Source: Caerostris darwini
Lineage: Eukaryota
Assembly: GCA_021605075.1 (NCBI GenBank)
Contig: BPLQ01015363.1
Span: 771,513 to 835,512 of the forward strand
Direction of reading: 5' to 3'
Length of the DNA: 64,000 bases
Program-made: the position numbers and the translations under genes
The notes under the pieces: model-generated
The model's input: the letters and a program-made list of their open reading frames with translations, nothing else
Database searches by the model: none
What the model was told of the DNA's origin: nothing
In this document: positions 2,401-63,200 of the stretch, one piece after another
Position numbering within the stretch: the stretch's first letter is position 1
How the letters are laid out: each line of letters starts with the position of its first letter

Positions 2401-2465
2401 ACAGCAGTGTCAAAGTAAATAATTTTTATTCTTTATTTAAAAAAAATATGCTTGGTTTGGGAGAA

Positions 2466-3110: not shown

Positions 3111-3129
3111 TTGATTTGGCTCAAACTTC

Positions 3130-3700
3130 GATATGTTTACCACACAAAGTACATATAACGTATATACAGGCAAATATACACACATAGGCATATTATACAC
3201 ATCTATGTATATACAGACATTTATATACTCACATACATACAGATATATATTCACACACACATACAGATACACATACAGACACGCATATAGACACGCATAT
3301 ATACGGACATACTTTTGCACATATATATACAAACATATACTTAAAAAAAGCATGCACACATATGATTATTCTTTTACATGTACATACAGGGGCGCATTAG
3401 TATACATAAAAATTCGATCATACATAAATTTACATGCGCCTATATACGCATGCCTACATACTTACGCATGCTTTACGTATACTGATGTATCACATGTTAC
3501 GTATATTACATACATTCAAATATAAAAACAAGCATGCATACATATATACATGCTCTCATACAAACATACAAACTCTCGTATAGATATGCGTACATTCGAA
3601 CATACATATGCTTGCATACATAAATATACATACAATACACACACACACATAAATTGTATATAAACATACGGGCTCACTGAAATAGATGCAGATTAATGTA
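3130..3700. repeat. Compound microsatellite rich in ACAT/ATAC/CACA motifs
   Basis: Example run: acatacagatacacatacagacacgcatatagacacgcatat. Track ORFs 3133..3525, 3105..3359 and 3556..3741 lie inside it and are repeat translations. Confidence 0.85.
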
Positions 3701-10575: not shown

Positions 10576-11451
10576 TTGGATTAGCTTTAGAAATAAATTA
10601 TTCGTGACATAGTTTAATATATGCTCAAAATTGAAAATACAATAAATAGTATATATGAATATTTTTTCGAAGTTATGCACTTGCCACAAACAAAACTGTT
10701 TTAGAAATATATGCTAGGATTTAAGTTTATTTTTTAAAGAAGAGAACAAATCCTGTCCAAAACTAAATCATATCTATCACAAAAAAAAAACTTGTCACTC
10801 TTTGTAAAAATATACGCAAGGATTTAAATTTATTTTTTAAAGAAGAGAATAAATCCAGATAACACTACATAGTAGCAAATCAAATTTATCGCATTTGCTT
10901 TCATTATTTCATATACGTACTATTTGTCGTTCAATTAAAGGCGTAGATTTGAATTCTCTTGTTAGTTAACAAAAAACTTGAGATCTCTTAGCAAAAATTT
11001 GCCTCAACAAACATATAATAAGTTTTAAATTAAAATTCTTATAGTACTATTGATTAAACTCAATTCACGTTTCCTAAAATATTGTGCTTTGAATTACAGT
11101 TTGAATTAAAGCACAATTAAAAAAAATTATTAACTGTTCTTGTATGCATTTGTGAGACAAAAAGTGTAACACGCTGAAACGGCGATTTTATTTAGATTCT
11201 ATTGCTGATTAAATCTTCAACAGTAGTAATTTGAAATTACAAAATGGCATTTGAAAGTATGAAATATATTTTTAATTAAAAAATTACAGATAGAGAATTA
11301 CTCTTACCAGATATACATAGTCATTAAAAACAAAGTCTCTGATCCCTTAACGCTGGGATTCCTAATGTTATCTCTTCAAAACTTCCTTGAAATTACATAA
11401 TGTTATTATTTCAAACTTCCTTGATATACTTGAAAAATAGCTAACTAAAAT

Positions 11452-11623
11452 GTGATTAGGTTTGTTGCTCTAAGGTAATTTTTTGCACACTTTAGACTAA
11501 TTAGACCGGGACCAACAGTTTAAAGTGGATATCGAACCCCTACCAATATCCATGCCACCGGCAGAATTCGAACCTGAATCCTGTGGTACCAAAGGCTAGA
11601 GTGCTATTGGCCATCAGGCCGCC
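11452..11623 (-). mobile_element. tRNA-derived SINE, copy a (tRNA-like head, core and start of body)
   Basis: The reverse complement reads gcggcctgatggccaatagcactctagcctttggtaccacaggattcaggttcgaattctgccggtggcatggatattggtaggggttcgatatccactttaaactgttggtcccggtctaattag...caaagtgtgcaaaaaatt. This matches the other copies at 49820, 51221-51504 (minus strand), 53143 and 59378. Confidence 0.8.
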
Positions 11624-23806: not shown

Positions 23807-25017
23807 CACTGAAGTGACAAAAGTCATGAGATAGCAATATGCAAATTTTCAGATGGCAGTAGCATCGCGTAGAACAGGTATAAATGCGCAGTGCTTTCGC
23901 AGAGCTTTCATTTCTGTTCAAGTTATTCATGTGAAGAGGTTTTGACGTGATGATGACCGCACGACGGAAATTAACAGACTTTGAACGCGGAATGTTAGTT
24001 GGAGCTAGACGCATGGGACATGCCATTTCGGAAATCGTTAGGGAATTCAACATTTCCAGATCCACTGTGTCAAGAGTGTGCCGAGAGTATGAAATTTCAG
24101 GCATAACATCCCACCATGGACAGCGCAGTGGTCGACCGCCTGCACTTAACGACCGAGACGTCTGCGAAGACTCGTAAATTCTAACAGACAAGCAACACTG
24201 CGTCAAATAACCGCAGAAATCAATGTGGAACGTACAAGGGACTTGTCTGTTAGAACTGTGCGGAGAAATTTGGCTTTCTTGGGCTATTCCAGCAGAAGAC
24301 CGACTCGAGTGCCTTTACTGACAGAACGACATCGCTTGCAGCGACTCTCGTGGGCACGTGAGCATATCGGTTGGTCCCTAGATGAATGGAAAACCGTGGC
24401 CTGGTCCGATGAGTCACGATTTCAGTTGGTAAGAGCTGATGGTAGGGTTCGAGTGTGGCGCAGACCCCACGAAGCCATGGACCCAAACTGTCAGCAAGGC
24501 ACTGTTCAAGCTGGTGGTGGCTCCGTAATGGTGTGGGCTGATTTTTCATGGCATGGACTTGGTCCTCTGGGGCGACTGGACCGAACATTGACTGGAAATG
24601 CTTATGTTCAGCTACTTGGAGATCACTTGCAGCCATTCATGGAATTCATGTACCCAAACAACGATGGGATTTTTATGGATGACAATGCGCCATGTCACCG
24701 GGCCACAACTGTTCGCGATTGGTTTGAAGAACATTCTGGACAATTCCAACGAATGATCTGGCCACCTAGATCGCCCGATATGAATCCCATCGAGCATTTA
24801 TGGGACATCATCGAGAGGTCTGTTCATGCCCAAAATCCTGCACCATAAACGCTTTCACAATTATGGACGTCTATCGAGACAGCATGGCTCAATATTCCTG
24901 TAGAAGACTTCCAACGACTTGTTGAGTCCATGCCACGTCGAGTTGCTGCCCTTCGCCGGGCGAAAGGAGGGCCGACACGATATTAAGAGGTATCCCATGA
25001 CTTTTGTCACTTCAGTG
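23807..25017 (+). mobile_element. Tc1-like (Tc1/mariner superfamily) DNA transposon, nearly full length, flanked by TA
   Basis: There are perfect terminal inverted repeats of about 24-27 bp: cactgaagtgacaaaagtcatg at 23807 and catgacttttgtcacttcagtg ending at 25017. TA dinucleotides sit on both flanks (23805-06 and 25018-19). The internal region encodes a DD34E transposase. Confidence 0.9.
23950..24986 (+). pseudogene. Tc1-family DD34E transposase, inactivated by one frameshift (about 24150-24165) and one in-frame TAA (24846-24848)
   Basis: Segment 1 reads MMTARRKLTDFERGMLVGARRMGHAISEIVREFNISRSTVSRVCREYEISG...RSGRPPALNDRD, which is a paired-like HTH. After the frame change, the sequence continues RRLVNSNRQATLRQITAEINVERTRDLSVRTVRRNLAFLGYSSRRPTRVPLLTERHRLQRLSWAREH...WSDESRF...VMVWADFSWHGLGPL...MDDNAPCHRA...WPPRSPDMNPIEHLWD.... 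After the in-frame TAA, the same frame continues TLSQLWTSIETAWLNIPVEDFQRLVESMPRRVAALRRAKGGPTRY*. Conserved catalytic D (WSDESRF), D (DDNAPCH) and E (NPIEHLW) motifs are all present. Confidence 0.85.
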
Positions 25018-38720: not shown

Positions 38721-39034
38721 ATATTTTAGGTATAATTTGTAGCTTTATTCCCATTCACAGGTAGCACATATGTTTTCTTTAAAAGGCTGCATTTAACTAG
38801 AAGGTATTTTTTTTTCAGTTGACTAACATTCTGCAGTTGAATCATCCTTGGATGCCCGGAAGGCTATTTATTCTGTGATGTAACCGTCGCCGGAGTAAAG
38901 GCTTCAGAAATGCCAACTCCAGAAATTTCAACGAGATAAATATCGATAACTCACTTCAGCGGGTCTCTCACTACCAAAATTCCTGAGGTTTGTAAACTAC
39001 TTTTTCTCTCGTACACATATTTCGAATCCACGCT

Positions 39035-39291
39035 TATAAATCGAGGGGGTGACGCATGTCACTTCACTTCCCCGAGCACAAGTGAATGAATGAAAGTACG
39101 AAAATATAGAAGAAAGAATCTACAGAGCAGGCGCCAGAGAAGCTCTTCCCCCGCAACTCCAGCCTCTCATATATATTGAAACCCCGAAAAATCGCTTACT
39201 CTGTTTTCCGTTTCTGAAGCCACGGGTCGCGTGCCGCTTCTTGGCCACAAATTTCGTCGGTTTCACCTGTTGAAAAAAAAACGCAAGTCAA
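39035..39291 (+). promoter_or_regulatory. Candidate core promoter (TATAAAT at 39035-39041) and a non-coding first exon that ends at a consensus splice donor, CAA|GTAAGT, at 39292
   Basis: There is a GC-enriched island at about 38820-39290 within otherwise AT-rich DNA. A TATA box is followed about 25-30 bp later by tcacttc, which resembles an initiator element. Only very short upstream ORFs are present (MNESTKI*). This exon could splice to the acceptor at 43705-43706 upstream of the ATG exon of the downstream gene. The link is speculative. Confidence 0.3.
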
Positions 39292-40200: not shown

Positions 40201-41679
40201 ATTCTATAATCAAAATAATTTATTACAAAATTTCTTATTTGTTTTTTAAATATTATTTTTAAAGCAAAATGAATAGTAGTTAGAAATTTAAATACATATC
40301 GTATTATATATGGTTTAAATCAGTTAAAATTAATTAGTAACTGACAAATAACTTATTAATTAACATATGAAGTGAAGTTTGAATTTTTTTGATGAATTTC
40401 TTTTTGAAACGTTAAATGAAAAAAATAGCCTTTTAACTTTCAAAATAATTTAAATTATGATGCAAAATATATAATATGTTTAATTAAATAAAATAATTTA
40501 GCTTTAATCAAAAAAATAATATAGTTTATAGTTTCGAATAAAAACAAGTTTTTAGCGTCAATAATTACAATTCTACAGTGATCAGAAAGTCCCAAAAATA
40601 TTTTTTCAATTTTAAAACTTTTTTATTAAAATTGGATTAACAATTAACGTTTTAAAGACATTTTACACATAACAAAAATTCCGTTTTTTCATAATTACAT
40701 GTTTACTAATATTATTTAACTAATTTGAATATATTCCATTAAATTTATTTGCATTTAATTTGTTCCAACGAAAATAAATTAGCAATTTATTTCTTATGTA
40801 TGCTTTAATTAATTTTTTGTACATAACTTTATATTTGTTTTACTGTTCAGTAAAAAAAATATATAATTTTTTTTGTATTTTAAATTAGTGTTGTAAAGAT
40901 TTAAGAAAAACATATGAAAATAAAAATAATTCTTATTTTTCGAATTAATATTTTTTAGTAATAAAAATTAATTTTAATATTTCGATTTTATTTTAATTAC
41001 ATGTTTAAGCTCATAGTTTAGAAATAGCAATGAGAGAAAACGTGAGTTTTATGTCCAATATTCCTAATAATTTCAGTTGAGAATCTTTTTCTCACCAACA
41101 GTTTTCAAAAAAGAAATTGTTTTAGAGTGCTTACAAATTTAAAGAAGATTTTAAATTATGATTATTCTAATAATTAAGATAATTTTTATGTGTTGAGTCG
41201 TTTTTAGGTAACCTAATTTTATTTTTTTTTACTGGGAATTTTTATTAAAGAATTACAAATACATTATAATATCAGTTAACTTGGTTATATTTTATGTCCC
41301 AGTTCAAATTTAAAAAAATTTTGAAGATTGTTTAAATAATTTATTTTCTAATTATAATATCTTTCTGCAGTCGTCAGTATTTCGCTTAAAAGTATAAAAG
41401 AATAATTCATTTTTATTTTTTCAAGGTTCAATAGAAAGAAAATTACAAAATTATAAGGTAACTTTTTATTTCAAATTAAATTTAATTAGATCAATGTTCT
41501 TTATTTTAAGAACCCTGAATCATTTACCCTATTTTAATTTTCTTCAACATTTTGATTATTGAATTTATATTTATATAAAATAAACTTATTCTAAATTAAT
41601 ACATTAGATTTTTATAGTATAAAACGCGTAAGAGATTTAATGGAAAGCATTTTACTTAACTGACTGAAAAGAAGAATGA

Positions 41680-42537
41680 TTTTTTCATAAATAAATTTGA
41701 AAACTTGGTTAACATAAGTTCCGTGTTTGATTATGTCATTTTAAAACATATGTTACCACTTTATTATTTCTAACAAATACCCAACATAACTTGTCACACA
41801 TAAGAAGTAAAACCCGAATTAAGGAAAAAACAGTACAATTCCTGGGTTTAAAATTGTAAATATCTGCATACACAAAAAATATACAATACACACCCAGAAA
41901 AGGTTTATCAAAAACTAATAAAACTAGAAGTATTTCTAACAATTAAATTTATTTTCATATTTCTTTGAATTTTTAAAAGAAAGTATTTATCTTCTTAAAT
42001 TTAATATATTCTCTTTTCATCAGATAGATGGCCTACGTCTAAAATTATTTATTAAGCATTTATAAAATTAATTTATATTTTATAAATCATTTAACATTGT
42101 ATCATTTAATTTCAGTTTGTTATATTTTGTTTACTGGCTTTATTTGTTGCCATTTAACAGTACACAAATTATTATGTTTTAAATACGATTATGTATTACG
42201 TAATATTATATTTAAAACGTAGTTTTAAATATTATTTCGTTTTAAATATAATATTACGTAATACATATATTATTACATGTATAATAATATATGTATTACA
42301 TTTTATATATTCACTGCGTACGTAAATGAAAATTGTTTTCTTAAGAATTGTTAATTTAGAGTATTTTCTGTAAATACATTTATTATGTGATGCAATTTGC
42401 TGTTTTGTACTTTAATAAGACAACACATAAATATATATGATATTATTATTAATTCATTGTTAGTTTATGGGATGCATAATCAAACACGGAATTTACGTTA
42501 ACCAAGTTTAGATTTTCAAATTTATTTATAAAAATAT
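41680..42537. mobile_element. Foldback or MITE-like non-autonomous element with imperfect terminal inverted repeats of about 55-60 bp and a central 29-bp perfect palindrome
   Basis: The left end, ttttttcataaataaatttgaaaacttggttaacataagttccgtgtttgattatg at 41682-41737, is the reverse complement of the right end, cataatcaaacacggaatttacgttaaccaagttt(agat)tttcaaatttatttataaaaa at 42472-42535. In the centre, atgtattacgtaatattatatttaaaacg at 42191-42219 is perfectly inverted at 42238-42266 across an 18-bp spacer. Confidence 0.65.
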
Positions 42538-43140
42538 AATTATTCTTTACAGTCAGCCAATTAAAACTTTCGAAATCAATTTATGCTACAGAATGGTTTA
42601 TATCATAAATATATTTTACTTTTTTAATGAAATTTTTATACATAACTATTTTTTGTGCTGTATAAAATGTAGTAATAAGTAATACTGGTATATAAAAATA
42701 TATAATTTAGTAACATGTAGTATGTTACTCTTATTAAAGATTTCTGGTAAAGGCTTAAGACACCCACGGTTAAAAGCTTTGGTAAACAATTACTTGTCAT
42801 AATATTCCAGACTTATCTATGATCATCAATTAATCAACAAAGATTTCAAGTATACAAAAGCGCCATTTATACTTTAGTATCGTTAATTAATGTCCAATGA
42901 ATCATTTTGGTCATCTTCATTCGAGATGTCGGTGAAAGACATCACTTCATATTAGGTAGATATGATTACACTAGATTGTGGATAGTAAATATATCAAGAA
43001 AAATTCAAAAATATGCTTAAAGCTAAAAAATTATAAAAAGACTAAATTACTTTAACGAATACAATGTTTTTATCAATTCTATAAAAACTAAAAATACTTT
43101 TAATGAGTTATATTAAAATATATAAAACTGCTCATCTGCA

Positions 43141-43268
43141 GCATATCTTTAAGCTACACGTGCCTTCTGGGTAGTGCTAAATGAGTAACAGGGTGCAGCC
43201 CTTGCTTATGCCATAAAGATTAACTGTCTCTGTATTGCAGCTGCATTAGAAGAATAACAACATATAAA
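43141..43268 (+). mobile_element. tRNA-derived SINE, copy b (5'-truncated; body and 3' module A only)
   Basis: gcatatctttaagctacacgtgccttctgggtagtgctaaatgagtaacagggtgcagcccttgcttatgccataaagattaactgtctctgtattgcagctgcattagaagaataacaaca aligns to 53305-53430 of full-length copy f. Confidence 0.8.
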
Positions 43269-43765
43269 ACTGCATAAGTTATTCTCAAATAAACTGAATT
43301 TAACAATATATCATGGTTTTGTTGATCGTTTGGAGAAGAATATAAAAGAATTTCATCAAATTAAATTTATAATAATTAATTTACTCCATTAAACTTTATC
43401 TTTTTTCTGTCCCTATCAATTAATTGTCTTACCTCTTAGGTTATTGAATGCCATGAAATCCTTTTATACAGTGCTCCGTCGTGATACACGTCTTATTAAA
43501 GTTAATTATATTTCAATATTAGTTACTTTAGAAATTAAAATATTTAAAATACCCTTTGTTAATAAATACTTAATTATTTTATTAAAAAGTTTATTATTGT
43601 TTTTTGTCCACATCAAATTGAATAAGAAGAGTTTTTCTTAATCTCTTGCTGAAAAAGTACGATGTTTTTAACAAGTATTCAGAAATAATCTATTTTATTT
43701 TTTCAGAATACTTGGAGTGAAGCTTTCCTTTCTTTGAAGCTTATTAGTATATCTTCATCGAAATA

Positions 43766-49300: not shown

Positions 49301-49695
49301 ATAAGTGTGAAATCTATTTCACAAATTATTTTATTCATGGAAGCATTTAGAAAGGTATTAAAATCGGGTCATTTTTTAAAAATTTAATCATCCGTATGAT
49401 TGGAATCGCATCCAAGTTGAAAATTCCGTTGTCCAGTAGCCAGTTAGCGAACTCAATAGAATCTTGATCCGGAGAGTATTTTGCGTTAAGATTTAAAATA
49501 TATAAATATGGATCGCAACCACCCCACTTTTAAGATAAAATTCGCAAAAGATTTCTCTGGGTTTCACTTGATGAAATGAAATCCATTGGCTTCACCTTTT
49601 CAATTGCTGGGCAAACGTGAGCAGCAAAGGGAGAAAAAATAATGTTGGAAAAATTCTCGTCAGTAAAGTTGTATATATATATAAAATATAAAGAC

Positions 49696-49814
49696 TCCAA
49701 CGGCCGTACCATGCTGAATATACCGGTTCTCGTTAGATCACCGAAGTTAAGCATCATTGGGCGCGGTCAGTACTTGGGTGGGTGACCACCTGGGAACACT
49801 GCGTGCCGTTGGCA
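49696..49814 (+). rRNA. 5S ribosomal RNA gene or orphon, about 119 nt
   Basis: tccaacggccgtaccatgctgaatataccggttctcgttagatcaccgaagttaagcatcattgggcgcggtcagtacttgggtgggtgaccacctgggaacactgcgtgccgttggc matches the eukaryotic 5S consensus throughout. Helix I pairs ccaacggc with gccgttgg. Box A is AGTTAAGC, the intermediate element is GGTCAGTAC and box C is TGGGTGGGTGACCACCTGGG. An upstream AT-rich TATA-like tract (tatatatataaaatataa) lies at about -30 to -10, as required by insect 5S promoters. No oligo-T terminator follows the gene; instead there is aaattt and then a SINE. Confidence 0.8.
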
Positions 49815-49819
49815 AATTT

Positions 49820-50102
49820 GGGACCTGAATGGCCGAGTGTCTAGCGCTCTGGCGCTCGGTGCCACAGGTTTCGGGTTCGAATCCCGGCGGTGCCATGGAT
49901 GTTGTAGTGGTTCGGAATCCACTTTAAGCCGTAGGTCCCGGTCTTCTATGACTGTAAGAGCGTCACGGAGCAAAAGTCAGGCTTCTACCTACGGGGTGCT
50001 CCATCACAACAGAAGCTGCTTCCTTCCCCTTCAATCATGAGTCCATATGGGCTCGTGGGCTTGGCCAGCCAAGTGGGATAAGAAACAACAAACAACAACA
50101 AA
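49820..50102 (+). mobile_element. tRNA-derived SINE, copy d (tRNA-like head, conserved core, 3' module B, ending in a (CAA)n-like tail)
   Basis: gggacctgaatggccgagtgtctagcgctctggcgctcggtgccacaggtttcgggttcgaatcccggcggtgccatggatgttgtagtggttcggaatccactttaagccgtaggtcccggtct...aacaacaaacaacaacaaa. The head and core match copies c, f and i. The 3' body differs from module A of copies c and f. Track ORFs 49767..49973 and 49837..50040 lie within this GC-rich element and are rejected. Confidence 0.8.
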
Positions 50103-50363
50103 TATAGAGACACTTGAAAATGCATTATTGAGAATAATAAAATTTTATGTTAAATTTAAGTAAGGATGTTGTCAATAATTTCGACAATATTAAGTAAATT
50201 GTTTTTCAGCAGTTATAGCTTCTTAGACTTATTTTTCCAATTTAAATTAGGGAATTTTCACTCTTAACCTCAGTCTTTTATAAGGGATGTTTATATCCTA
50301 GGAATTAAATAAGTTATTGTTTCAATGAATGTCTAAAATGTATTTGTGAATTTTTATTATAAC

Positions 50364-50416: not shown

Positions 50417-51220
50417 GTTCTCTTGAAAATGAATTTTATCTCCTAGTAAAGAATTAACTATCAAAAATAATTTCGATTTAAGTTCAAGTTAATTTTAAAT
50501 AAACGATTTGCTAACTTTTTAGAAAAAATAAATTGATTATAATATTTTCTTAATATTAACTTAGAAAATAGTAGGCTAATTAAAAGTTTTTTAATTATTA
50601 TAATAGTGGTCAATATAACTCATAAAATTAAAATATAATAGCCCGTATTTTTTAATGAAACTATGAAGATAAATTTAAATGGCTTCGAATTATTTTAACT
50701 CAATTTTTGTCAATGGATCCTTGGTCTTTTTTATCAATGGTTCTTTTTAGTTAATTCAAAAATAAAAATTAATTAATTAATTAAAAAAATTGAAATTGAT
50801 ATTTTGAAAGCGTAAAACAACTCATTTTTCGCATCAATATTTTAATTATTTTTTTGTCAACAATAAAAAACAACTATATACCGTAATTGGAGTAAAGTTT
50901 TTTTTAAATACGCCTTTTATTTAGGATATAATAAATCTCTTTTGATAAAAGGAAGGCTATAAAGAAAAAAAATAACAATTTACAACTAATAATAATGCTA
51001 CCATAAATCCGATTTCTTTTTTTGTCAATTAACCATTTAAAAGAAAGAAAATTATTCACATGGTGTAGTCGATTTCAAAATACAGAAAGATTTCATTCGC
51101 AAAAAACTGTAACTATGCTTGTACGGAAGTATGACAATTTCATAGGTGCAGAAATAATGTCAATAGGTGCAAAGGTGCACTATTCCAATTTTAGACTACA
51201 ATTACTCATTTTCATTTAAT

Positions 51221-51504
51221 TGTTGTTCTAATGCAGTTGACAATGCAGAGACAGTTAATCTTTATGCCATAAAAAACGCTAACCGCTTTACTCATTTAGC
51301 ACTAACAAGGAGCACGCGTAGCTTGAAGATATGCTACGGACGCGAGCAACACTACCCCACAATGCTCTACAATTATATTAGACTGGGACCTATGGTTTAA
51401 AATTGATTTCGAACCACTACAAACATTCATGACATCGCCGGGACTCGAACCCGAAAGCTGTGGTACCGAGCGCCAGAGCGCTAGCCACTCGGCCATCAAG
51501 CCCC
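51221..51504 (-). mobile_element. tRNA-derived SINE, copy c (full length, module A), flanked by a 15-bp target-site duplication
   Basis: The reverse complement reads ggggcttgatggccgagtggctagcgctctggcgctcggtaccacagctttcgggttcgagtcccggcgatgtcatgaatgtttgtagtggttcgaaatcaattttaaaccataggtcccagtctaatat...tagtgctaaatgagtaa...cataaagattaactgtctctgcattgtcaactgcattagaacaacaa. The direct repeat tcattttcatttaat occurs at 51206-51220 and again at 51505-51519. Confidence 0.85.
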
Positions 51505-51786
51505 TCATTTTCATTTAATTAAAAATGTAAAATTAATAGGTTATTATAATAACTAAAAAATTGTTAAGCAATATTATTTCAATAATTAAAAAATTTTTTT
51601 AGCGCGCAATAGGAAACATTATTACAGATACAATGGGCAAAATATGCGCGCTAGAGGAAAAAATAACGATAAAATGCGGTATGTAAAAACTCTCTAATAT
51701 GTGAAGGATATTTGTTTAATGAAAGATATGGTAGTCTCATAACATAAGAGGTGCAATTTCGGTAATACATATTGAATGGGACACTT

Positions 51787-51880
51787 TCTGAAGTTTGGTA
51801 TCCACGTTAAACTGAAAGTCCCGGTTTAATTAGCCCAAAGTGTGCAAAAAATGACCATAGAATGGCAAACAAAACCAAAT
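51787..51880 (+). mobile_element. SINE fragment, copy e (core and body only, no tRNA-like head)
   Basis: ggtatccacgttaaactgaaagtcccggtttaattagcccaaagtgtgcaaaaaatgaccatagaatggcaaacaaaaccaaatc matches the core of copies a and i. Confidence 0.65.
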
Positions 51881-52799
51881 CATATTTAAAAGAATTCATT
51901 TCAATATTTTTTCTATTCTAGTATGTAATAAAAGTCATCCCATTCAATGAAAGAAAAGAAATTTAAAAATTTTGCCTGAATATTTTCTTCCTAAAAAAAT
52001 ATGAGCATATTTTATATTTTTCTTATATATTAAATTCATAAAATACATGCTTTCCCCCAAACTTCATCTGTAAGTTTATGATTTTTGCGTTTGTAAATTA
52101 TTATATTTTGATTATAATATCATACAGTGCTTGAAGTATTAAAATTCGATGTAAGCATGAATTTAGTCAATACAGGAAATTGTAGTTTAATAGCAAAATT
52201 GCGTTAATAATTCATTGAAATATATCCTTATTATCTGAAAGCACTTTTGTGACTTTGATTTATTTAAAAAAAACCTTTTTGAATTAGAAAGTGAATCCAC
52301 TACTAGAAAGAGTGGAAAATACAAATCTTTATATATATATATATTTCAAATATTATGGTACCAAATCCGTCAATGTTTCTTTTTTTTAACATATCTTTTT
52401 TAAAATAATGGAAGAACAAAGAAAATAATAGGTTTATTTAACTTGAAGCTCACATAAAGTTTCTCCTAAGAAATTGCAAATAAAAGAACATATTAATTGT
52501 CTTAAGCATTAGAAATAATTCTATTGATTTAAAATAAAATTTGCCTTATATGAAATGTTAAATTAATTATTTGTCATAATTGATAAATCATCAAATGTAC
52601 CTATTGTTTAGCAGCCACCATTCTCCTAATGATGCACCCTAAGTAATGCTAAATCTACTGCATATCTGTCGTTCTATTGGCTGATAACTTAGGTCAAAGA
52701 TCCTAAAGTGTCATTTTAAAACAGCAATATGAACGACTTGACAATTTTTTCATAACTTACATTTTCTTGCAATTAAATAGAATCAATACGCTTGGCTTA

Positions 52800-53142: not shown

Positions 53143-53430
53143 GGGCCTGATGGCCGAGTGGCTTGCGCTCGGTACCATGAGTTTTGGGTTCGAGTTCGGA
53201 GGTGCCATGGATGTTTATAGTGATTCATAATCTACTTTAAACCGTAGATTCCGGTCTAATATGATCATAGAGCGTTGTGGGGGAAGTGTTACTCGCGTTC
53301 GTAACATATCTTCAAGATACACGCTCCCCTGGGTAGTGCTAAATGAGTAACAGTGGTGCAGTCCTTGCTTATAGCATAAAGATTAACTGTATCTGCATTG
53401 CCAGCTGAATTAGAACAAACAACATAACAC
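53143..53430 (+). mobile_element. tRNA-derived SINE, copy f (full length, module A), ending 65 bp upstream of the acceptor of terminal exon 4
   Basis: gggcctgatggccgagtggcttgcgctcggtaccatgagttttgggttcgagttcggaggtgccatggatgtttatagtgattcataatctactttaaaccgtagattccggtctaatatgatcatagagcgttgtggggg...gggtagtgctaaatgagtaacagtggtgcagtccttgcttatagcataaagattaactgtatctgcattgccagctgaattagaacaaacaacataacac. Confidence 0.85.
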
Positions 53431-53584: not shown

Positions 53585-55702
53585 TCCTGTTCACTTCTTT
53601 GAAAAGCTTCAATTTTATTCCAATGCATATCGCAAAATTATCATTACAAGTTATTCATGCCAAGAAATAAAAAGCTTCCGGAAGTTGTTCTCAATTCTTA
53701 TCATCTTGTCCTCATATTGACGACGTGTTTCCGTTCTGTATTTAGAAAGCAGTTTGGAAAATTGGATGTAAATATTATTTACGGATAAAATGTTACTTAA
53801 AAGTGTATTTGGTTTCATAATTATTAAATAAAGTATATGATTACGATTTCCAGTTTCATTAAATATTTTATCTATGATTTTTTTTTTTTTTACTTAAACG
53901 ATGATGATTCTTCTTGAATTGCCAGTAATATGAAATAAACTCATTTAATAGATTTCAAAGAATTAATAAGACGCTAATTTGTGCTTCAAAGGCAATGAAT
54001 TGAAAATATCTTATTTCACTGTGGATAAAATCTTTAAAAAGGTGACAATGCAGTTTTCTCAGCAATAAATGCAATGAAAAGTTATATTTTCAAATCATAA
54101 AAATTAGCAATATTTTAAAATTTTATATGTTTAGATGTACTTTTCCTGGTTTGATTTATTACATTTATTCTAGTGATATTGATTCAAAACATTGCAACTT
54201 AATTCCATAATCATAACTGTTCATTTGATTGTAAAGTGCTAGTAATTATGAATTGATAGTAATTTCTTTCAAGAAGATTTTTAAATACTTAAACGTGGTA
54301 ACAAGCTTTTTAAAAGGCAACGTTTAAAGTAACATTTACGACTTCAAGCAATAATTGAATCTCATTAAATTAAAGTAATTTGATATTTATAAATAACATT
54401 TTGTAAATTTCTTGAAATTTAATTAAAACAAATGAATTATATAATTTTGCCTCGAAAACTACAGAACTGACTTTTTTCCAGCAAATGTTGTCATAGCCAA
54501 ACTTGTAACAGTGGTAATTTGCACAGTTAGCTTGCAAGATGGATTAGGTTCGAATTCTCTGGTAGAATCGATTGCAATCATTGCTTTCATAAACTTTCAG
54601 CATTGCTTCAGGGACTTGATGGCAATTTAAACAGCATGATTCACATCTTGCATCAACAATTAGACTGCCTTAAATTGGAACGAACACACTTGATGAAATT
54701 TTGTTGATTTTCTTGCGTACAACATGTAAATGATGAGCAATTACCCTAGAAGTTCTCCCTTCATAATGGGACCGAATGCTTGAAAAGTTGTCAGAAAGTG
54801 AAAAAAAAATTTAATTTTTTTGAATATTTCTTGAAATGTTATAAATTTTTGTCACTCCTTACATTTATAGTATTTGAGGAGGAATAATTTCCCTATTGCA
54901 CATTCCTAAAAATTAAAATATTTATAAGGCCACACGTCAGAAGACTTTTGTGATTCGGTAATCAACGCAGCTTTACAGCGATAAAGAATTTGTTAGAAGT
55001 AATTTCTGGAGGGGAATCAAATCCTTTAAATCAGTATTTTGAAGTTTTTGCATGACAAATCATTTTAAGTGATTTAAAATGACTTGTCCTGCAAAAAGAA
55101 AATTTCCTCTGCTTTTTTTAAACGAAGAGAAAAATGCCAATTTATCCCTATTTCACCTCGGAATTTTATGCATGCGTATTATCTATAAAATTTGGTTAAC
55201 AAAACTGTGGAATAAATTCTTGTTCATATTTGTATCTTTTTGAAATATTGTTAATTATATAGTGGTATCAATTTCTTTTTAAATTTTACATGATTTACTT
55301 ATATTACCAAAACTGAGTATTTCTGTTGCATTCTAATGCAAAACAGTTATCTCTGAGAAGCAAAATCTTTCTGATGCAATGAAAAATGGCAGAACAGTAA
55401 AAGATTGAAGATAAAATAATTTTTTTAGTAATCCCACTGCTGAAACAACAAACTTCTATATGAAGATATGGGTGGTCTTCGTCAAAAATTGGTCTTTTTT
55501 TCTGCCAAATTTAAAAATAAATGGGATTATTGCAAAAAAATAAAAATAAAAAGATTTTTGTTAAAAAAAAAAGACTTCATTAAGGGCAATCATTTCATTG
55601 GCTTGTTTAGTCATGAAAGGTTATCCAAGGAATTAGTGATTTGGTTCGGTTGATCACTGTACTGTCATTTTGTGCATGCACATTTGAGGTTATATACCAG
55701 GA

Positions 55703-55797
55703 TATAAAGTTTAACTTGGAGTCCGGACCAGTAACAAACATCCATGCCACCGCCAGGATTCGAATCTGTGACACCAAAGGCCAGAGCAATACCAAGG
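55703..55797 (-). mobile_element. SINE fragment, copy g (head and core, truncated at both ends)
   Basis: The reverse complement reads ggtattgctctggcctttggtgtcacagattcgaatcctggcggtggcatggatgtttgttactggtccggactccaagttaaac, which matches the head of copy i. Confidence 0.7.
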
Positions 55798-57011
55798 ATT
55801 AGTTAAGATCATTCTGATCATAGGACTATGGAAGATAGTTCTGATCATATGACTATGAAAGATAGTTCTGATCATACCAAACGGTTTAAAACAGAAACTC
55901 TAAGAAACGAAACTCCAAGTGATGGGCTATCTTTTGAAACACAAATTAGTTTAAGGGCTTCTGGTGATATTATTGTAGGAATGCTAACCATTCATCTCGT
56001 TATATCAAATGAGTATGATAATGAAACTGATACATTCAAAACTGTGCATTAATTACTACTAAACAATTAATTAAAAATTATGTATGACGTATGAAGCATT
56101 TTACAATGCACAATTTGTCAATGAATGGAGAGGAAATAATTTCATGTACATTGCTATCCATTGGACAATTATCTGAAGAGATTCAAGCGGGAATGTTTAA
56201 GAGTTTAAAAAAATATCATGGGCAGTTTTCTAGAAAGTGTTCAAGAGAGAAATATAATAAAGATAACCTCACATTCTTCTGATATCTACTGATTCATTTA
56301 AACTAGCATGGTACAACTTCCTCCAAATAGTTTCATTTGATTCCAAAAGAAGATCGAGACTTTTTAAAAACATCTGAGGCTTCAGAAACTTTGGGTGAAG
56401 GAAATTAATTGAATTCGGAAACCGATTCAGAAGAATCGTTCCTCAGTTACTGATTGTTGATTGTGCATTTTATTTTCAGACAATATTTTTAATAATTTTT
56501 AATTTTTCTTATTAAGATTTATATTTTTAAGTGTTGTTTCTAATTAAAATGAGTTATTGTTATTAGCAATAACGATTTTTTATAATTGTAAAACATAAAC
56601 AAAGAAAAATTATTGTTAATACCTCAAATTACTTGTTCTAATAATTTTGTGTTTAATATTATTTTTTATTTATATGTAACAAAAATTTTATTTCAGAGAA
56701 ATAATTTGCTTGCAAAATAAATTTTTCTATCAAAATTAATATAAAACTTGAAATCTGTAAGATAATTTATACAACATTATTATAATATACATTATCTCAA
56801 CACATTCTCAATAGTATTATATTTTCTTTATCACTTAATTTAAAACTAATCCCGCCGTTTTTATCATATATTAAATATATTGATAAAAATATTCAATTGT
56901 GGAAAATAAACCTCATACAACAATAATGCCATCTGGGTACTTCACCGAAACATCTGAAATAAACAACGAAGTTTTAATCTGAGAGCTTTCAAACTATTAA
57001 AATGAATTTCT

Positions 57012-57115
57012 CATCTCCTAAAAACTCTGACTTTAACTGTAAGTCCCGGTCTGTTTAGCCCTCGTGTGTACAAAATGACCGTAGAGCGACACACCGAACC
57101 AAACCTACAACCTCT
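57012..57115 (+). mobile_element. SINE fragment, copy h (core and body)
   Basis: ctgactttaactgtaagtcccggtctgtttagccctcgtgtgtacaaaatgaccgtagagcgacacaccgaaccaaacctac is related to the core and body seen at 51800-51870. Confidence 0.55.
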
Positions 57116-58169
57116 GAAAGACAATTTTTAAGACTATTGCATCAAAAGTTGGTATTTTGCCAGAAATCAGGAGGTTTTGTAGCATTGTGCGTCTGCAGGC
57201 TTTACATGGGAAACTAGGTCCCCCGAAAAGTCCTTATTTTTAAAATGCCCTTTTTAAAATAATAATATATATTTTTCATAGTTTTTTAGTGTTTCACTGT
57301 GTTTCCTATGTGTCTGTATAATAAAACTAATAAATTTTACAATACACTGAAATTGAAGAAGGAAAACAGACTGATTAGACTTGATGAGTACAGACTCCAT
57401 AAACATTTAATTTTGCTGAGGGCAGAAAAATTTTGTTTGAGCTCCTTAATATTTTTAAAGAGTTCCAACATAAAGGTTATATTTTTTGATATCGAACTTT
57501 TTCTGAAAGAATCTTCTAGACACCTTTGTATACTAGACACTTCTAGACACCTTTATACACTAGACACCGCCTTTCATACAGGGAATTCTCTTCAGGAATG
57601 CAATTACAGACGAACTTGTTTTCATCCTCCCACGAACATCAAGATGGTCTCAAGTAGGGTAATCAACATATATAACGTTAAGATATTTTCCATACGAAAG
57701 TATTAGATTATAAAAATTCATATTCAGAACCAAACTCAGAATAAATTCTATCAATCCTTTAAAGAAATCCTTTAAAGAAATTCTATCAAGAAATTTTAGT
57801 TTTTCCCTCTAAACTGGAAGAATTTTCTAAACTCTATCAGTTATGTTTTCCAAGATTCTCCTTTTTGAAGAATGTGGCACTGAATTAGCACATTCACATT
57901 AAATGAAATGTACACATAATAGACGTGAATATTCAAATATAATTCAATATTTAGTAAGTGATGTTAATATTAAAGTCTAAAAAAAGCTATCAATACAATG
58001 CAACATTTTCATAAGTAAGAGTTTTTAATTTTCTTCTGTTCATTTCTCTATTGATGCGTGGGAGTAATATTAATATTAATTAATTTATATAATTTATCTT
58101 AAATATTGATTGAGCGATACATAATTATGTTTTGATTTTTTTAATGTAGTACTCGACTTGATGCAATTT

Positions 58170-59690
58170 GTCATTAATTTAAGAAGTTTTGAGTAAATTA
58201 TCTCATTATTTACCCCTTTCCATGGAAATCCACTCCTCTATCGTAACAAGAAAAAAATAAGAGCCTATACTTACGTTTTTTAAGAGATATGGTCCACATT
58301 TATATGACTCGACATTGTTGTTTTTTACTGTTAAAAAACACCCTCCCAAAACCAACAATGTATAATCATGATGACAATGTGTAGTATTGTTCACCCATTT
58401 TATTTTGGCACTAATTAAGAGAAGGAAACGTATAGATTGAAAGGCATCGACAAAACAAAGCTTTAAATTTCTTTCCTTTTTATATAGGGCTCACAAATGC
58501 TCAAAGTGATTTTATAATATGTTTTAGCGTTGTATGTTTTTCATTATTTGTCCTAACAGATATATTTTCTAACTGTCATGTAATGATTTCAACAAGCCTA
58601 TAACGTTTTAAAATAACCTAATTAGATTTAAATTATCTTATTTATTTATTTACACAATACCATGGAGATCAACTCCTCTACCTTAACAAGAAAATAAAAG
58701 AAATAAGAGTCTATACTTATGTTTTTAAGAGATATGACCCACATTTATATGACTCGACATTGTTGTTTTTTACTATTAAAAAAAACACCTTCACAAAACC
58801 AACAATGAAGAATCATGATGACAATGTGTAGCACTGGTCACCCATTTTATTGGCACTAGTTAAGAGAAGGAAACGTATAGATTGAAAAACATTGAAAAAA
58901 TAAAACTTTAAATTTCTTTTTTTTTTATATAAGGCTCACAATTGCTCAAATTGCTTTTATTATATTTTTTAGTGTTATACGTTTTTCATTATTTGTTCTA
59001 ATATACATATTTTCTAACTGTCATGTAAAGATTTAAAATAGCTTAATTAGATGTAAATTATGTTATTCATTTATTTAGTTATCTCCTTATTTACACAGTA
59101 CCATGGAGATCACCTCCTCTACCTGAACAAGAAAAAAAAAGAAATTAGAACCTATGCTTATGTTTTTTAAGAGATATGGCCCACATTTATATGATTTTCC
59201 ATTGATGTTGTTTATTATTAAGAGACACAGTCACAAAACCAACAATGTAGAATCATGATGATAATGTGTAATATTGGTCACTCATTTTATTGGCACTGAA
59301 AGATTGTATAGATTGAAAAACATTGAAAAGAAAAAACTTTAAATTTCTTTTTTTCTATAGGGTTCAGAATTGCTCAAGCGGCCTGGTGGTCAATTGGCTT
59401 GCTCTCTGGCCTTTGGTACCACAGGTTCGAATCCTGGCGGTGGCATGGATGCTTGTTAGTGGTTCGGAATCCACGTTTAATTGTAGGTCCCGGTCTAATT
59501 AGGTCACGGAGCTACAAACCAAATTACATTTGCTCAAATTGATTTTATATGCTTTAGTTTTATACGTTTTTCATTATTTGTTCTAATAAATAAAGTTTCT
59601 AACTGTCATATAAAGATTTTAACTAGCCTATAACGTATTAAAACAACCTAATGAGATGTAAATTATTTTATTCATTTATTTTATCTTAGA
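58170..59690. repeat. Satellite with a unit of about 440 bp in about 3.3 copies; the third copy is interrupted by SINE copy i
   Basis: Unit landmarks: catggaaatccactcctctatcgtaacaag at 58221, catggagatcaactcctctaccttaacaag at 58661 and catggagatcacctcctctacctgaacaag at 59103. Throughout, the copies share gagatatggcccacatttatatgactcgacattgttgtttttt...aaaaccaacaatg(t/a)a(t/g)aatcatgatgacaatgtgtag...cattttattggcact...ctaactgtcatgtaaagatt. Track ORF 58206..58394 is rejected. Confidence 0.85.
59378..59527 (+). mobile_element. tRNA-derived SINE, copy i (head and core, 3'-truncated), inserted into the 440-bp satellite with a target-site duplication of about 10 bp
   Basis: gcggcctggtggtcaattggcttgctctctggcctttggtaccacaggttcgaatcctggcggtggcatggatgcttgttagtggttcggaatccacgtttaattgtaggtcccggtctaattaggtcacggagctacaaaccaaattac. 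It is flanked by aattgctcaa at 59368-77 and atttgctcaa at 59528-37. The undisrupted satellite copy 2 reads caattgctcaaattg, which shows the pre-insertion sequence. Confidence 0.85.
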
Positions 59691-62496: not shown

Positions 62497-63200
62497 TCCT
62501 TCACACAAGTTAATTAATGTTAATTCACTAAAGTAATGTAATTTATGTTAATTCACACAGGTTATGTTATTTCACACAAGTTAATTAATGTTAATTCACT
62601 AAAGTAATGTAATTTATGTTAATTCACACAGGTTATGTTATTTCACACAAGTTAATTAATGTTAATTCACTAAAGTAATGTAATTTATGTTAATTCACGC
62701 AGGTTATGTTATTTCACACAAGTTAATTAATGTTAATTCACTAAAGTAATGTAATTTATGTTAATTCACACAGGTTATGTTATTTCACACAAGTTAATTA
62801 ATGTTAATTCACTAAAGTAATGTAATTTATGTTAATTCACACAGGTTATGTTATTTCACACAAGTTAATTAATGTTAATTCACTAAAGTAATGTAATTTA
62901 TGTTAATTCACGCAGGTTATGTTATTTCACACAAGTTAATTAATGTTAATTCACTAAAGTAATGTAATTTATGTTAATTCACACAGGTTATGTTATTTCA
63001 CACAAGTTAATTAATGTTAATTCACTAAAGTAATGTAATTTATGTTAATTCACACAGGTTATGTTATTTCACACAAGTTAATTAATGTTAATTCACTAAA
63101 GTAATGTAATTTATGGTAATTCACACAGGTTATGTTAATTCACACAAGTAATGTTATTTCACACAAGTAATGTTAATTCACACAAGTTATTCACACAATG
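62497..63200. repeat. Satellite with a 71-bp unit in about 10 copies
   Basis: The unit cacacaagttaattaatgttaattcactaaagtaatgtaatttatgttaattcacacaggttatgttattt begins at 62502, 62573, 62644 and so on, and degenerates by about 63130-63200. Track ORFs 62171..62536 and 62305..62508 overlap it and are rejected. Confidence 0.9.

What the first reader, a model, noticed from the sequence alone, without database searches (positions are those of the whole stretch)
53143..53430. Apparently uncharacterised tRNA-derived SINE family with a modular 3' end; at least 9 copies in 64 kb
Nine full or partial copies share a tRNA-like head (g(c)ggcctg(a/g)tggccgag...ggttcgaatcc(c/t)ggcggtgccatgg) and a conserved central core (gttcggaatccac(g)tttaa(a/t)c(c/t)gtaggtcccggtctaat). 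They lie at 11452-11623 (minus strand), 43141-43268, 49820-50102, 51221-51504 (minus strand), 51787-51880, 53143-53430, 55703-55797 (minus strand), 57012-57115 and 59378-59527. Two different 3' bodies follow the core. Module A, in copies b, c and f, reads ...gggtagtgctaaatgagtaacag...cataaagattaactgt...attagaacaa. Module B, in copy d, reads ...gagcgtcacggagcaaaagtcaggcttctacc...(caa)n. Two copies have clean target-site duplications: 15 bp, tcattttcatttaat, around copy c, and about 10 bp, a(a/t)ttgctcaa, around copy i. These indicate retrotransposition, not segmental duplication. The density, about one copy per 7 kb, suggests a high-copy-number family.
Basis: seen in the sequence. Interest (0 to 1): 0.6.

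Follow-up and report, generated by a model that had tools for sequence, protein, structure and literature searches.

The report
Spider SINE family, one 5S-fused copy
The nine repeats are copies of a short "copy-and-paste" retroposon (SINE) family in the genome of Darwin's bark spider; this is an ordinary kind of element, but one copy was inserted fused to a complete 5S ribosomal RNA, and the sister species still has the empty site.

Summary
Exactly nine related repeats lie at the stated places (E-values down to 1e-60) and nowhere else in the window. The window is from Caerostris darwini: one exon matches CDAR_118661 at 91 of 92 residues.

The copies share a roughly 80-nt head with Pol III A and B boxes and a roughly 65-nt common body. 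They then carry one of three 3' ends, A (b, d, f), B (c) or C (a, e, g, h, i), each ending in an A/C-rich tail. Seven of nine insertions have target-site duplications of 8-17 bp anchored exactly at their ends, and four copies are 5'-truncated.

In the orthologous 29.5-kb locus of C. extrusa, copies d to i are present. The unit 5S rRNA + AATTT + copy c (407 bp) is absent, and the site there is clean, with one copy of TATAGAGAC. That composite therefore inserted as one piece after the species split.

Verdict: a LINE-dependent SINE family with interchangeable 3' ends, plus one 5S-SINE chimeric retrocopy. The partner LINE, the genome-wide copy number and the Repbase/Dfam status could not be tested. 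It is a new member of a known kind, of modest interest.

The parts
11451..11622 (-). Copy a: full-length, short form (head + core + type C 3' end). Flanked by CTAACTAAAA (11441-11450) and CTAGCTAAAA (11623-11632).
   Evidence: blastn and nhmmer; duplication of 10 bp with 1 mismatch anchored at both ends
43132..43261 (+). Copy b: 5'-truncated type A copy holding only the last ~130 nt of module A. Perfect 12-bp duplication ATATAAAACTGC at 43120-43131 and 43262-43273. It lies inside a 2.27-kb stretch (41174-43440) that C. extrusa lacks.
49687..49695 (+). Left target-site duplication (TATAAAGAC) of the 5S+SINE composite.
   Evidence: the C. extrusa empty site holds a single TATAGAGAC
49696..49814 (+). 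Complete 5S rRNA copy forming the 5' part of the composite insertion. It is followed by the spacer AATTT (49815-49819).
   Evidence: Rfam RF00001, 98.3 bits, model positions 1-120; absent from the orthologous C. extrusa site
49820..50102 (+). Copy c: full-length SINE with the type B 3' end and an (AACAAC)n tail. It has no duplication of its own.
   Evidence: c alone scores 4, no better than chance
50103..50111 (+). Right target-site duplication (TATAGAGAC) of the 5S+SINE composite.
51221..51504 (-). Copy d: full-length type A copy. Perfect 15-bp duplication TCATTTTCATTTAAT at 51206-51220 and 51505-51519. Orthologous copy present in C. extrusa.
51776..51880 (+). Copy e: 5'-truncated short form, starting at the end of the head. 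Duplication CATATTGA (51768-51775) / CATATTTA (51881-51888). Orthologue in C. extrusa.
53143..53430 (+). Copy f, the flagged interval: full-length type A copy. No detectable duplication. The 5' flank aacaactatatac resembles the element's own tail. Orthologue in C. extrusa.
55638..55791 (-). Copy g: short form, 5'-truncated within the head. Duplication ACTAAT(T)CCTTGG at 55625-55637 and 55792-55803; it is a perfect 12 bp in the C. extrusa orthologue.
57025..57115 (+). Copy h: 5'-truncated short form (part of the core plus the type C end). No clear duplication. A ~155-bp stretch specific to C. darwini follows it. Orthologue in C. extrusa.
59378..59527 (+). Copy i: full-length short form with a secondary 20-nt internal deletion; the C. 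extrusa orthologue has the complete type C end. Duplication AATTGCTCAA (59368-59377) / ATTTGCTCAA (59528-59537).

Best explanation
The nine repeats belong to one SINE family of Caerostris orb-weaving spiders.

Anatomy (shown):
- A ~80-nt head with an RNA polymerase III A box (TGGCCGAGTGG) and B box (GGTTCGARTCC).
- A ~65-nt common body: GGATGTTTGTAGTGGTTCGGAATCCACTTTAAACYGTAGGTCCCGGTCTAAT, followed in all types by ATGAYYRTAGAGCG.
- One of three 3' ends. Type A has ~130 further nt ending GCATTAGAACAA(CAA). Type B has ~125 different nt ending (AACAAC)n. Type C has a 20-nt insert before the ATGAYYRTAGAGCG block and then only a short tail, ACAAACCRAACCAAAY.

Mechanism (inferred from established SINE biology):
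- Pol III transcribes a master copy from the internal promoter. The consensus has no run of four or more T that would stop it.
- The reverse transcriptase/endonuclease of a partner LINE recognises the 3' module or the A/C-rich tail.
- The cDNA is made at a nicked target (target-primed reverse transcription). This leaves target-site duplications of 8-17 bp and frequent 5' truncations.
- The three 3' ends on one head+body are best explained by exchange of the 3' part, through template switching or recombination, so that different LINE machineries can be used.

Timing and the 5S copy:
- Six insertions predate the C. darwini / C. extrusa split.
- One insertion happened afterwards in the C. darwini lineage. 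It carried a complete 5S rRNA with a 3' AAUUU trailer joined head-to-tail to a complete type B SINE.
- That copy is most simply a chimeric retrocopy, made when the reverse transcriptase reached the 5' end of the SINE RNA and switched onto the 3' end of a nascent 5S transcript.
For: Family and limits:
- blastn and nhmmer recover exactly nine copies with unrelated flanks.
- The shared block ATGAYYRTAGAGCG and the three 3' ends are shown.

Promoter:
- The type A consensus has an A box at positions 10-20 and a B box at 54-64, and no T run of four or more.
- The 5S+c composite has no T4 run until 41 nt past its tail.

Retroposition:
- End-anchored duplications occur in 7 of 9 insertions: d 15-17 bp perfect, b 12 bp perfect, g 12 bp, i 8-10 bp, a 10 bp with 1 mismatch, e 8 bp with 1 mismatch, 5S+c 9-12 bp with 1 mismatch.
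- For an anchored match in this window, the chance of a score of 9 or more is 0.018, and of 15 or more is 0.003.
- Four copies (b, e, g, h) are 5'-truncated.

Empty site:
- The C. extrusa orthologous locus L012 aligns to window 31440-63758 at 84-94% identity.
- It reads ...ATATAAAATATAGAGAC|ATTTGAAAATGC..., with one copy of the duplicated 9-mer exactly where C. darwini has 5S-AATTT-SINE c.
- No 5S is found in L012. Copy c alone has no duplication.
- Copies d, e, f, g, h and i are orthologous in both species.

Species: exon 48043-48321 matches CDAR_118661 at 91 of 92 residues.

Precedent for the concepts:
- Variable 3' tails on one head+central domain through partner-LINE change and template switching (PMC4824008, PMC11481361).
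- A 5S / tRNA-SINE chimera in an insect, HaSE3 (PMC3272025).
Against: - No partner LINE was found. The window has no reverse-transcriptase or endonuclease ORF.
- Transcription by Pol III is inferred from sequence motifs only.
- The head is not recognised as a tRNA by ARAGORN at default settings or by the Rfam tRNA model.
- The predicted RNA fold of a full copy is no more stable than shuffled sequence (z = 0.27). A conserved 3' hairpin in module A rests on only three sequences.
- Copies f and h show no duplication.
- Only one type B copy and only one 5S-linked copy were seen, so template switching versus read-through cannot be decided.
Confidence: 0.85

Rival explanations
1. The 5S-SINE unit is not a one-off chimera. 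It is one copy of an established composite SINE subfamily whose master carries a 5S head in front of the tRNA-like head, comparable with HaSE3, SINE3 or AmnSINE1. In that case the 5S internal promoter drives transcription of the whole unit.
For: - The composite has an intact 5S (98 bits) and no T4 terminator until 41 nt beyond the tail, so a Pol III transcript started in the 5S would cover the whole unit.
- It is the only type B copy in the window and the youngest insertion.
- 5S-headed SINEs that share a body with a tRNA-headed SINE are known (PMC3272025; Nishihara 2006 as cited in PMC4824008).
Against: - Only one such copy exists in 64 kb plus the 29.5 kb of Caerostris DNA held.
- Known 5S SINEs replace all or part of the tRNA head, whereas here both are complete.
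- The AATTT junction looks like the 3' trailer of a primary 5S transcript, as expected for a fresh template switch.
Confidence: 0.25
2. The composite arose from read-through. A SINE had inserted 5 nt downstream of a 5S gene whose terminator is only TTT. Pol III read through into the SINE, and that long transcript was retroposed to the present site.
For: Only three T separate the 5S from the SINE, which is a weak terminator. The SINE 3' tail on the read-through RNA would recruit the LINE machinery.
Against: This needs a source locus with exactly this arrangement, and none was seen. Template switching onto small Pol III RNAs is a documented route to the same structure (PMC2104539; bioRxiv 10.1101/2025.02.02.635956).
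Confidence: 0.2
3. The repeats are products of local segmental or tandem duplication, or are a DNA-transposon derivative (MITE), and not retroposons.
For: Eight of the nine copies lie within 16.4 kb (43.1-59.5 kb). Tandem repeats are nearby.
Against: - Similarity ends exactly at the element borders and the flanks are unrelated.
- The duplications differ in sequence and length (8-17 bp).
- There are no terminal inverted repeats.
- 5' truncations and A/C-rich tails are present.
- The sister species has a clean empty site.
Confidence: 0.02
4. The family is already catalogued, for instance as a RepeatModeler-derived or curated spider SINE in Dfam or Repbase classed as tRNA-Deu, MIR or tRNA-Core. 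It would then not be uncharacterised.
For: Automated annotation of a related orb-weaver, Trichonephila antipodiana, reports about 106,000 SINE copies classed tRNA-Deu, MIR, tRNA-Core and tRNA (PMC7976613). Spider SINE models therefore exist in the libraries.
Against: - The strings of the core and modules occur in no relevant paper of the searchable library.
- Spider genome papers give only bulk percentages.
This is a lead only.
- No copy was found in 90 kb sampled from three other spider species.
Confidence: 0.35

Closest known systems
SINE superfamilies with one head and central domain but interchangeable LINE-derived 3' tails (MetaSINEs; 'jigsaw' or 'mosaic' mollusc SINEs: PMC4824008, PMC4758252, PMC11481361)
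   Same: It has a head with Pol III boxes, a conserved central block and several alternative 3' ends within one lineage. Duplications are 6-18 bp. Copies accumulate near genes.
   Different: The central block here matched none of the domain sequences I could reproduce (CORE/MIR, V, Deu). The Meta, Ceph and Nin-DC domains could not be compared. The family was seen only in two Caerostris species, so no deep conservation is shown. The partner LINEs are unknown.
HaSE1 / HaSE3 of Helicoverpa armigera (PMC3272025)
   Same: This is an arthropod tRNA-like SINE, and a 5S rRNA-headed element shares its body and 3' tail. It is interpreted as a chimera of 5S rRNA and a tRNA-derived SINE.
   Different: HaSE3 is a multi-copy family in which the 5S region replaces the tRNA head. 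Here there is one copy, with complete 5S + AATTT + complete tRNA-like head. The sequences are unrelated.
SINE3 / AmnSINE1-type composite 5S + partial tRNA promoters (Nishihara et al. 2006, as cited in PMC4824008)
   Same: A 5S sequence sits upstream of tRNA-like SINE sequence. [quoted passage not shown]
   Different: Those are ancient vertebrate families carrying a Deu domain. No Deu-like sequence was found here, and family status of the composite is not shown.
Chimeric retrocopies made by LINE reverse-transcriptase template switching (U6/5S-L1 chimeras in mammals, bioRxiv 10.1101/2025.02.02.635956; MGL/Mg-SINE chimeras in Magnaporthe, PMC2104539)
   Same: A full-length small Pol III RNA, with its U-ended 3' trailer, is fused head-to-tail and in the same orientation to the 5' end of a retroposon. 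One pair of duplications flanks the whole unit.
   Different: The 3' partner here is a complete SINE in a spider. The LINE responsible is unknown.
Insect tRNA-like SINE heads: four JGI metagenome contigs (L004-L007), which from memory resemble the heads of orthopteran Lm1/SGRP1 and termite Talua-type SINEs
   Same: They share the B box and the following GGTTCGAATCCNGGCGGTGNCATGGATGT (30-65 nt at 75-94% identity).
   Different: Everything downstream differs. The resemblance may reflect a common parent tRNA or convergence on a good Pol III promoter. The names of those insect families are recalled from memory and were not tested.

Membership tests
SINE (short, non-coding, Pol III-type, LINE-mobilised retroposon) | Short (under ~600 bp), non-coding, many dispersed copies with unrelated flanks | tested here: met
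   Nine copies of 90-290 bp; similarity ends at the element borders
SINE (short, non-coding, Pol III-type, LINE-mobilised retroposon) | Internal Pol III promoter (A and B boxes at proper spacing) and no internal T-run terminator | tested here: met
   A box TGGCCGAGTGG at 10-20 and B box GGTTCGAGTCC at 54-64 of the type A consensus; no T run of four or more in the consensus sequences. Motif level only; transcription was not tested.
SINE (short, non-coding, Pol III-type, LINE-mobilised retroposon) | Insertion by retroposition: variable-length target-site duplications, 5' truncations, empty orthologous site | tested here: met
   Seven of nine insertions have anchored duplications of 8-17 bp. Four copies are truncated. 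The C. extrusa site of the 5S+c insertion is empty.
SINE (short, non-coding, Pol III-type, LINE-mobilised retroposon) | 3' end or tail shared with a partner LINE of the same genome | not testable with these tools
   No LINE ORF in the window. No further C. darwini DNA was retrievable. No match to modules A, B or C in other held loci.
tRNA-derived (type 2) SINE head | Head recognisable as a tRNA or tRNA pseudogene (cloverleaf, identifiable parent tRNA) | tested here: inconclusive
   ARAGORN at default settings finds none. At relaxed thresholds it finds a pseudo-tRNA in the long-head consensus and in some copies. Rfam gives no tRNA match at E<=10, only mascRNA-like acceptor/T-arm matches of 15-26 bits.
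Conserved-domain SINE superfamilies (CORE, V, Deu/Nin-DC, Meta, Ceph) | Central domain homologous to the superfamily's domain | not testable with these tools
   No library or supplementary consensus was available. Meta, Ceph and Nin-DC were not compared.
5S rRNA-derived SINE family (SINE3, HaSE3 type) | 5' region derived from 5S rRNA, with its internal promoter | tested here: met
   Rfam 5S_rRNA, 98.3 bits, full length, at 49696-49814, directly upstream of copy c and inside the same pair of duplications
5S rRNA-derived SINE family (SINE3, HaSE3 type) | Many independent copies carrying the same 5S-body junction | not testable with these tools
   Only one such copy was found in the 64-kb window, and none in the 29.5-kb C. 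extrusa locus
Chimeric retrocopy by reverse-transcriptase template switching | Two different RNAs joined head-to-tail in one orientation, with the 5' partner a full-length small RNA including its 3' end, and one duplication pair around the whole | tested here: met
   The structure is 5S (positions 1-120) + AATTT + SINE position 1. TATA(A/G)AGAC flanks the 407-bp unit. There is a single copy of it at the empty site. Copy c has no duplication of its own.

The most novel reading that the evidence does not exclude
The 5S-AATTT-SINE unit may be more than a dead chimeric pseudogene. It could be a newly born 5S-promoted SINE lineage now amplifying in Caerostris darwini. The evidence does not exclude this: the unit has two Pol III promoters in series, no terminator before its tail, a type B 3' end seen in no older copy, and an insertion date after the split from C. 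extrusa. If true, this would be promoter capture, the first step in the birth of a new SINE family, caught at a dated locus with a known empty site.
Probability: 0.15. Interest if true: 0.5.

Novelty: new member of a known kind. Interest (0 to 1): 0.3.

Why it matters
Spider genome papers report SINEs only as bulk percentages (0-1% of the genome) from automated classification. I found no family-level description in the searchable literature. This locus gives a concrete spider SINE family with its anatomy: one head and body with three 3' ends. It also gives dated insertions, six older and one younger than the C. darwini / C. extrusa split, and a textbook-quality empty site. Such insertions are usable as presence/absence markers for Caerostris phylogeny. 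They also help correct repeat annotation in AT-rich spider genomes, where a large share of repeats remains unclassified. The 5S-SINE fusion is a clean natural example of how new composite SINE heads can arise. None of this changes current understanding of SINE biology.

Tried and rejected
1. A protein-database search with a sense-frame translation of copy d found no candidate. An exhaustive HMMER search with a 72-aa translation of copy c gave one low-complexity hit only. Predicted proteomes therefore gave no view of the family's distribution.

2. Retrieval of more C. darwini DNA through three C. darwini proteins failed because that assembly is not in the index. C. extrusa was reachable only through the orthologue P0123.

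3. I sampled other spiders: Araneus ventricosus (L001 and L011, 42 kb), Trichonephila clavipes (L002, 22 kb), Stegodyphus mimosarum (L003, 26 kb after Ns), and an unidentified assembly (L010). None had a copy by blastn or nhmmer. This is too little DNA to claim absence.

4. Collection scans:
   - The head motif in metagenomes gave four contigs with a different, insect-type SINE, and nothing in prokaryotic genomes.
   - The core 17-mer gave two chance hits in bacterial MAGs.
   - The core and module A patterns gave nothing in viral contigs.

5. Supplementary consensus files for known SINE domains are not held. A literature string search was empty.

6. Search for a partner LINE: tblastn with RT and EN ORFs from L010 against the window found nothing. 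A (CAA)5-tailed stretch at 460-625 does not align significantly with modules A or B. Modules A and B align only weakly with each other (z about 2.6).

7. Structure: the full-copy fold is not more stable than shuffles. A small conserved hairpin in module A rests on three sequences.

8. An apparent link between copy i and module B (a shared GTCACGGAGC) was rejected. The C. extrusa orthologue shows that i simply suffered a 20-nt deletion.

Full report
**1. What is in the sequence**

The window is AT-rich (about 26% G+C). The flagged 288 bases (53143-53430) are 79% identical over their whole length to 51223-51503 on the other strand. They are 86% identical over their 3' part to 43142-43264. Their 5' 120 nt match four further places.

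I repeated the search with five copies as queries, and then with profile HMMs of the head+core and of each 3' part. In every pair the similarity stops at the element ends, so the copies sit in unrelated DNA.

- The module "GGGTAGTGCTAAATGAGTAACAG...ATTAGAACAA" is in b, d and f.
- The module ending in (CAA)n is in c.
- The 15-bp duplication flanks d.

**2. Origin of the window**

A 93-codon open stretch at 48043-48321 matches "uncharacterized protein CDAR_118661 [Caerostris darwini]" at 91 of 92 residues. The one difference is at the exon edge. The window is therefore from Darwin's bark spider, an orb-weaver.

**3. Anatomy of the element**

The multiple alignment and pairwise alignments of the parts after the core show these components:
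- **Head, about 80 nt.** A box TGGCCGAGTGG and B box GGTTCGARTCC lie 44 nt apart.
- **Common body.** GGATGTTTGTAGTGGTTCGGAATCCACTTTAAACYGTAGGTCCCGGTCTAAT, followed in all types by ATGAYYRTAGAGCG.
- **One of three 3' ends.**
  - Type A (b, d, f) continues for about 130 nt and ends GCATTAGAACAA(CAA).
  - Type B (c only) continues with about 125 different nt and ends in (AACAAC)n.
  - Type C (a, e, g, h, i) has a 20-nt insert (TAGCCCAAAGTGTGCAAAAA) before the ATGAYYRTAGAGCG block. It then ends at once in ACAAACCRAACCAAAY.

The type A consensus (293 nt) and the type C consensus contain no run of four or more T, as expected for a Pol III transcript.

The head is tRNA-like only loosely:
- ARAGORN finds no tRNA in the window.
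- Rfam gives no tRNA match even at E<=10 on short stretches. It gives only a weak match to the tRNA-like mascRNA model, covering an acceptor/T-arm.
- ARAGORN calls a pseudo-tRNA only at relaxed thresholds.

**4. Evidence for retroposition**

I looked for duplications anchored at the element ends and compared them with 4000 random anchored pairs from the same window. The chance of a score of 9 or more is 0.018, and of 15 or more is 0.003.

| Insertion | Duplication |
|---|---|
| d | 15-17 bp, perfect |
| b | ATATAAAACTGC, 12 bp, perfect |
| g | ACTAAT(T)CCTTGG, 12 bp, perfect in the sister species |
| i | A(A/T)TTGCTCAA |
| a | 10 bp, one mismatch |
| e | CATATT(G/T)A |
| 5S+c unit | TATA(A/G)AGAC (see section 5) |
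| f, h | none found |

Copies b, e, g and h lack their 5' parts and begin at different points of the consensus. Variable-length duplications, 5' truncation and simple A/C-rich tails are the signature of LINE-mediated, target-primed reverse transcription. No terminal inverted repeats are present.

**5. The 5S rRNA**

Rfam finds one family above its gathering threshold in the window: a complete 5S rRNA (98.3 bits, model positions 1-120) at 49696-49814. It is followed by AATTT and then by position 1 of copy c.

Copy c by itself has no duplication. The unit 5S + AATTT + c is flanked by TATAAAGAC and TATAGAGAC.

**6. The sister-species test**

The cluster of CDAR_118661 contains the C. extrusa orthologue CEXT_586821. 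Its locus could be fetched as L012 (BPLR01003961.1:65514-94994). L012 is collinear with window 31440-63758 at 84-94% identity.

- Profile searches find orthologous copies of d, e, f, g, h and i in L012, at the same positions and with the same flanks. These six insertions predate the species split.
- At the position of the 5S+c unit, C. extrusa reads ...ATATAAAATATAGAGAC|ATTTGAAAATGC... There is one copy of TATAGAGAC, no 5S and no SINE.
- The 407-bp composite was therefore inserted as one piece in the C. darwini lineage after the split. The family, or at least its reverse-transcriptase supply, was still active then.
- Copy b lies in a 2.27-kb stretch that C. extrusa lacks. That is uninformative.
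- The comparison corrected two details. The g duplication is a perfect 12 bp in C. extrusa. The odd short 3' end of i is a secondary 20-nt deletion in C. darwini.

**7. How it most likely works**

*Shown:* the anatomy, the dispersed copies, the duplications, the truncations, the empty site, and insertion of the composite as a single unit.

*Inferred from established SINE biology:*
- Pol III transcribes from the A and B boxes.
- A partner LINE's reverse transcriptase recognises the 3' module or tail.
- Target-primed reverse transcription inserts the copy.
- Exchange of 3' parts explains three ends on one body, as proposed for MetaSINEs and bivalve SINEs (PMC4824008, PMC11481361).

For the composite, three routes fit:
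- **Template switch.** The enzyme reached the 5' end of the SINE RNA and switched onto the 3' end of a nascent 5S transcript. The AAUUU fits a Pol III 3' trailer. This is the route documented for U6/5S-L1 and Magnaporthe chimeras (PMC2104539; bioRxiv 10.1101/2025.02.02.635956).
- **Read-through** from a 5S gene with a weak TTT terminator into a SINE just downstream.
- **An existing 5S-headed subfamily**, as in HaSE3 of Helicoverpa (PMC3272025).

The held data cannot separate these. I rank them roughly 0.5 : 0.2 : 0.25.

**8. What could not be settled**

- **Partner LINE.** The window has no RT or EN ORF. No held DNA has a LINE 3' end like modules A, B or C.
- **More C. darwini DNA.** None was retrievable.
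- **Protein-space searches** with SINE translations found nothing.
- **Other spiders.** 90 kb sampled from Araneus ventricosus, Trichonephila clavipes and Stegodyphus mimosarum contain no copy. That is too little DNA to claim the family is Caerostris-specific.
- **Metagenomes.** Scanning for the head's 3' motif returned four contigs with a different, insect-type SINE. It shares only GGTTCGAATCCNGGCGGTGNCATGGATGT. This part of the head is therefore not unique to spiders.
- **Repeat libraries.** No Repbase, Dfam or SINEBase comparison was possible. Supplementary consensus files are not held, and the element's strings occur in no relevant paper.
- **Known domains.** I treat that as a lead, not a test.
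- **Literature context.** Spider genome papers report SINEs only as percentages, for example 1.1% and about 106,000 copies in Trichonephila antipodiana, auto-classed as tRNA-Deu, MIR and tRNA-Core.

**9. Verdict**

In addition, one recent 5S rRNA-SINE chimeric insertion was documented by an empty orthologous site.

In kind it is ordinary: a new member of a known class. Whether it is already in a repeat library is open. Interest is modest (0.3). The most novel reading not excluded is that the 5S-SINE unit is a newborn, amplifying 5S-promoted lineage (probability about 0.15).

Noticed in passing
window 23935-24845 (+): Tc1-family transposase pseudogene (HTH_Tnp_Tc3_2 + DDE_3) in a GC-richer island. 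The nearest database proteins are 94% identical (ENA), with 82-87% identity to Stegodyphus mimosarum. There are several C. darwini paralogues, and close relatives are recorded from a termite and from 'Salmonella' entries, the latter probably contamination.
   Followed up: partly
window 2509-2838 (-) and 1800-3700: An ORF fragment that looks mariner-like by eye (no Pfam match at E<=0.01), embedded in long (CATA/TATG)-type microsatellite-like sequence that produces spurious long ORFs.
   Followed up: no
window 460-625 (+): About 150 nt of GC-richer sequence ending in (CAA)5AAA. It looks like the 3' end of another retroposon with the same kind of tail as module B. Its alignment to modules A and B is not significant.
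   Followed up: partly
window 41174-43440: A 2.27-kb stretch, containing SINE copy b, that is absent from the orthologous C. extrusa locus. Whether it is an insertion or a deletion is not resolved.
   Followed up: partly
window 51583-51695 and 57131-57281: Two small stretches (about 113 and 155 bp) present in C. darwini but not in C. extrusa. The first has inverted GCGCGC-containing ends (MITE-like). The second is flanked by TTTTT on both sides.
   Followed up: no
window 58251-59354 and 62500-63149: Tandem repeats: a 445-bp unit x2.5 (84% matches) next to copy i, and a 71-bp unit x9.2 (98% matches).
   Followed up: no
window 38950-39290: An isolated island of about 48-50% G+C in a 20-25% G+C background. 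It has no Rfam match and may be a promoter or first exon.
   Followed up: no
L004:794-1000, L005:1502-1760, L006:2982-3260, L007:381-600 (JGI metagenome contigs): A different tRNA-like SINE of insect type. It shares only the B box and the following GGCGGTGNCATGGATGT with the spider head. One copy (L006) is followed by a (CTAA)n / (CTGA)n repeat run.
   Followed up: partly
L012 versus window, copies d-i: Orthologous SINE copies differ between the two Caerostris species by about 5-11%, ignoring the 20-nt deletion in i. Their immediate 30-nt flanks differ by about 3-5%. The sample is small, and the difference might reflect faster decay of the CpG-rich elements.
   Followed up: no
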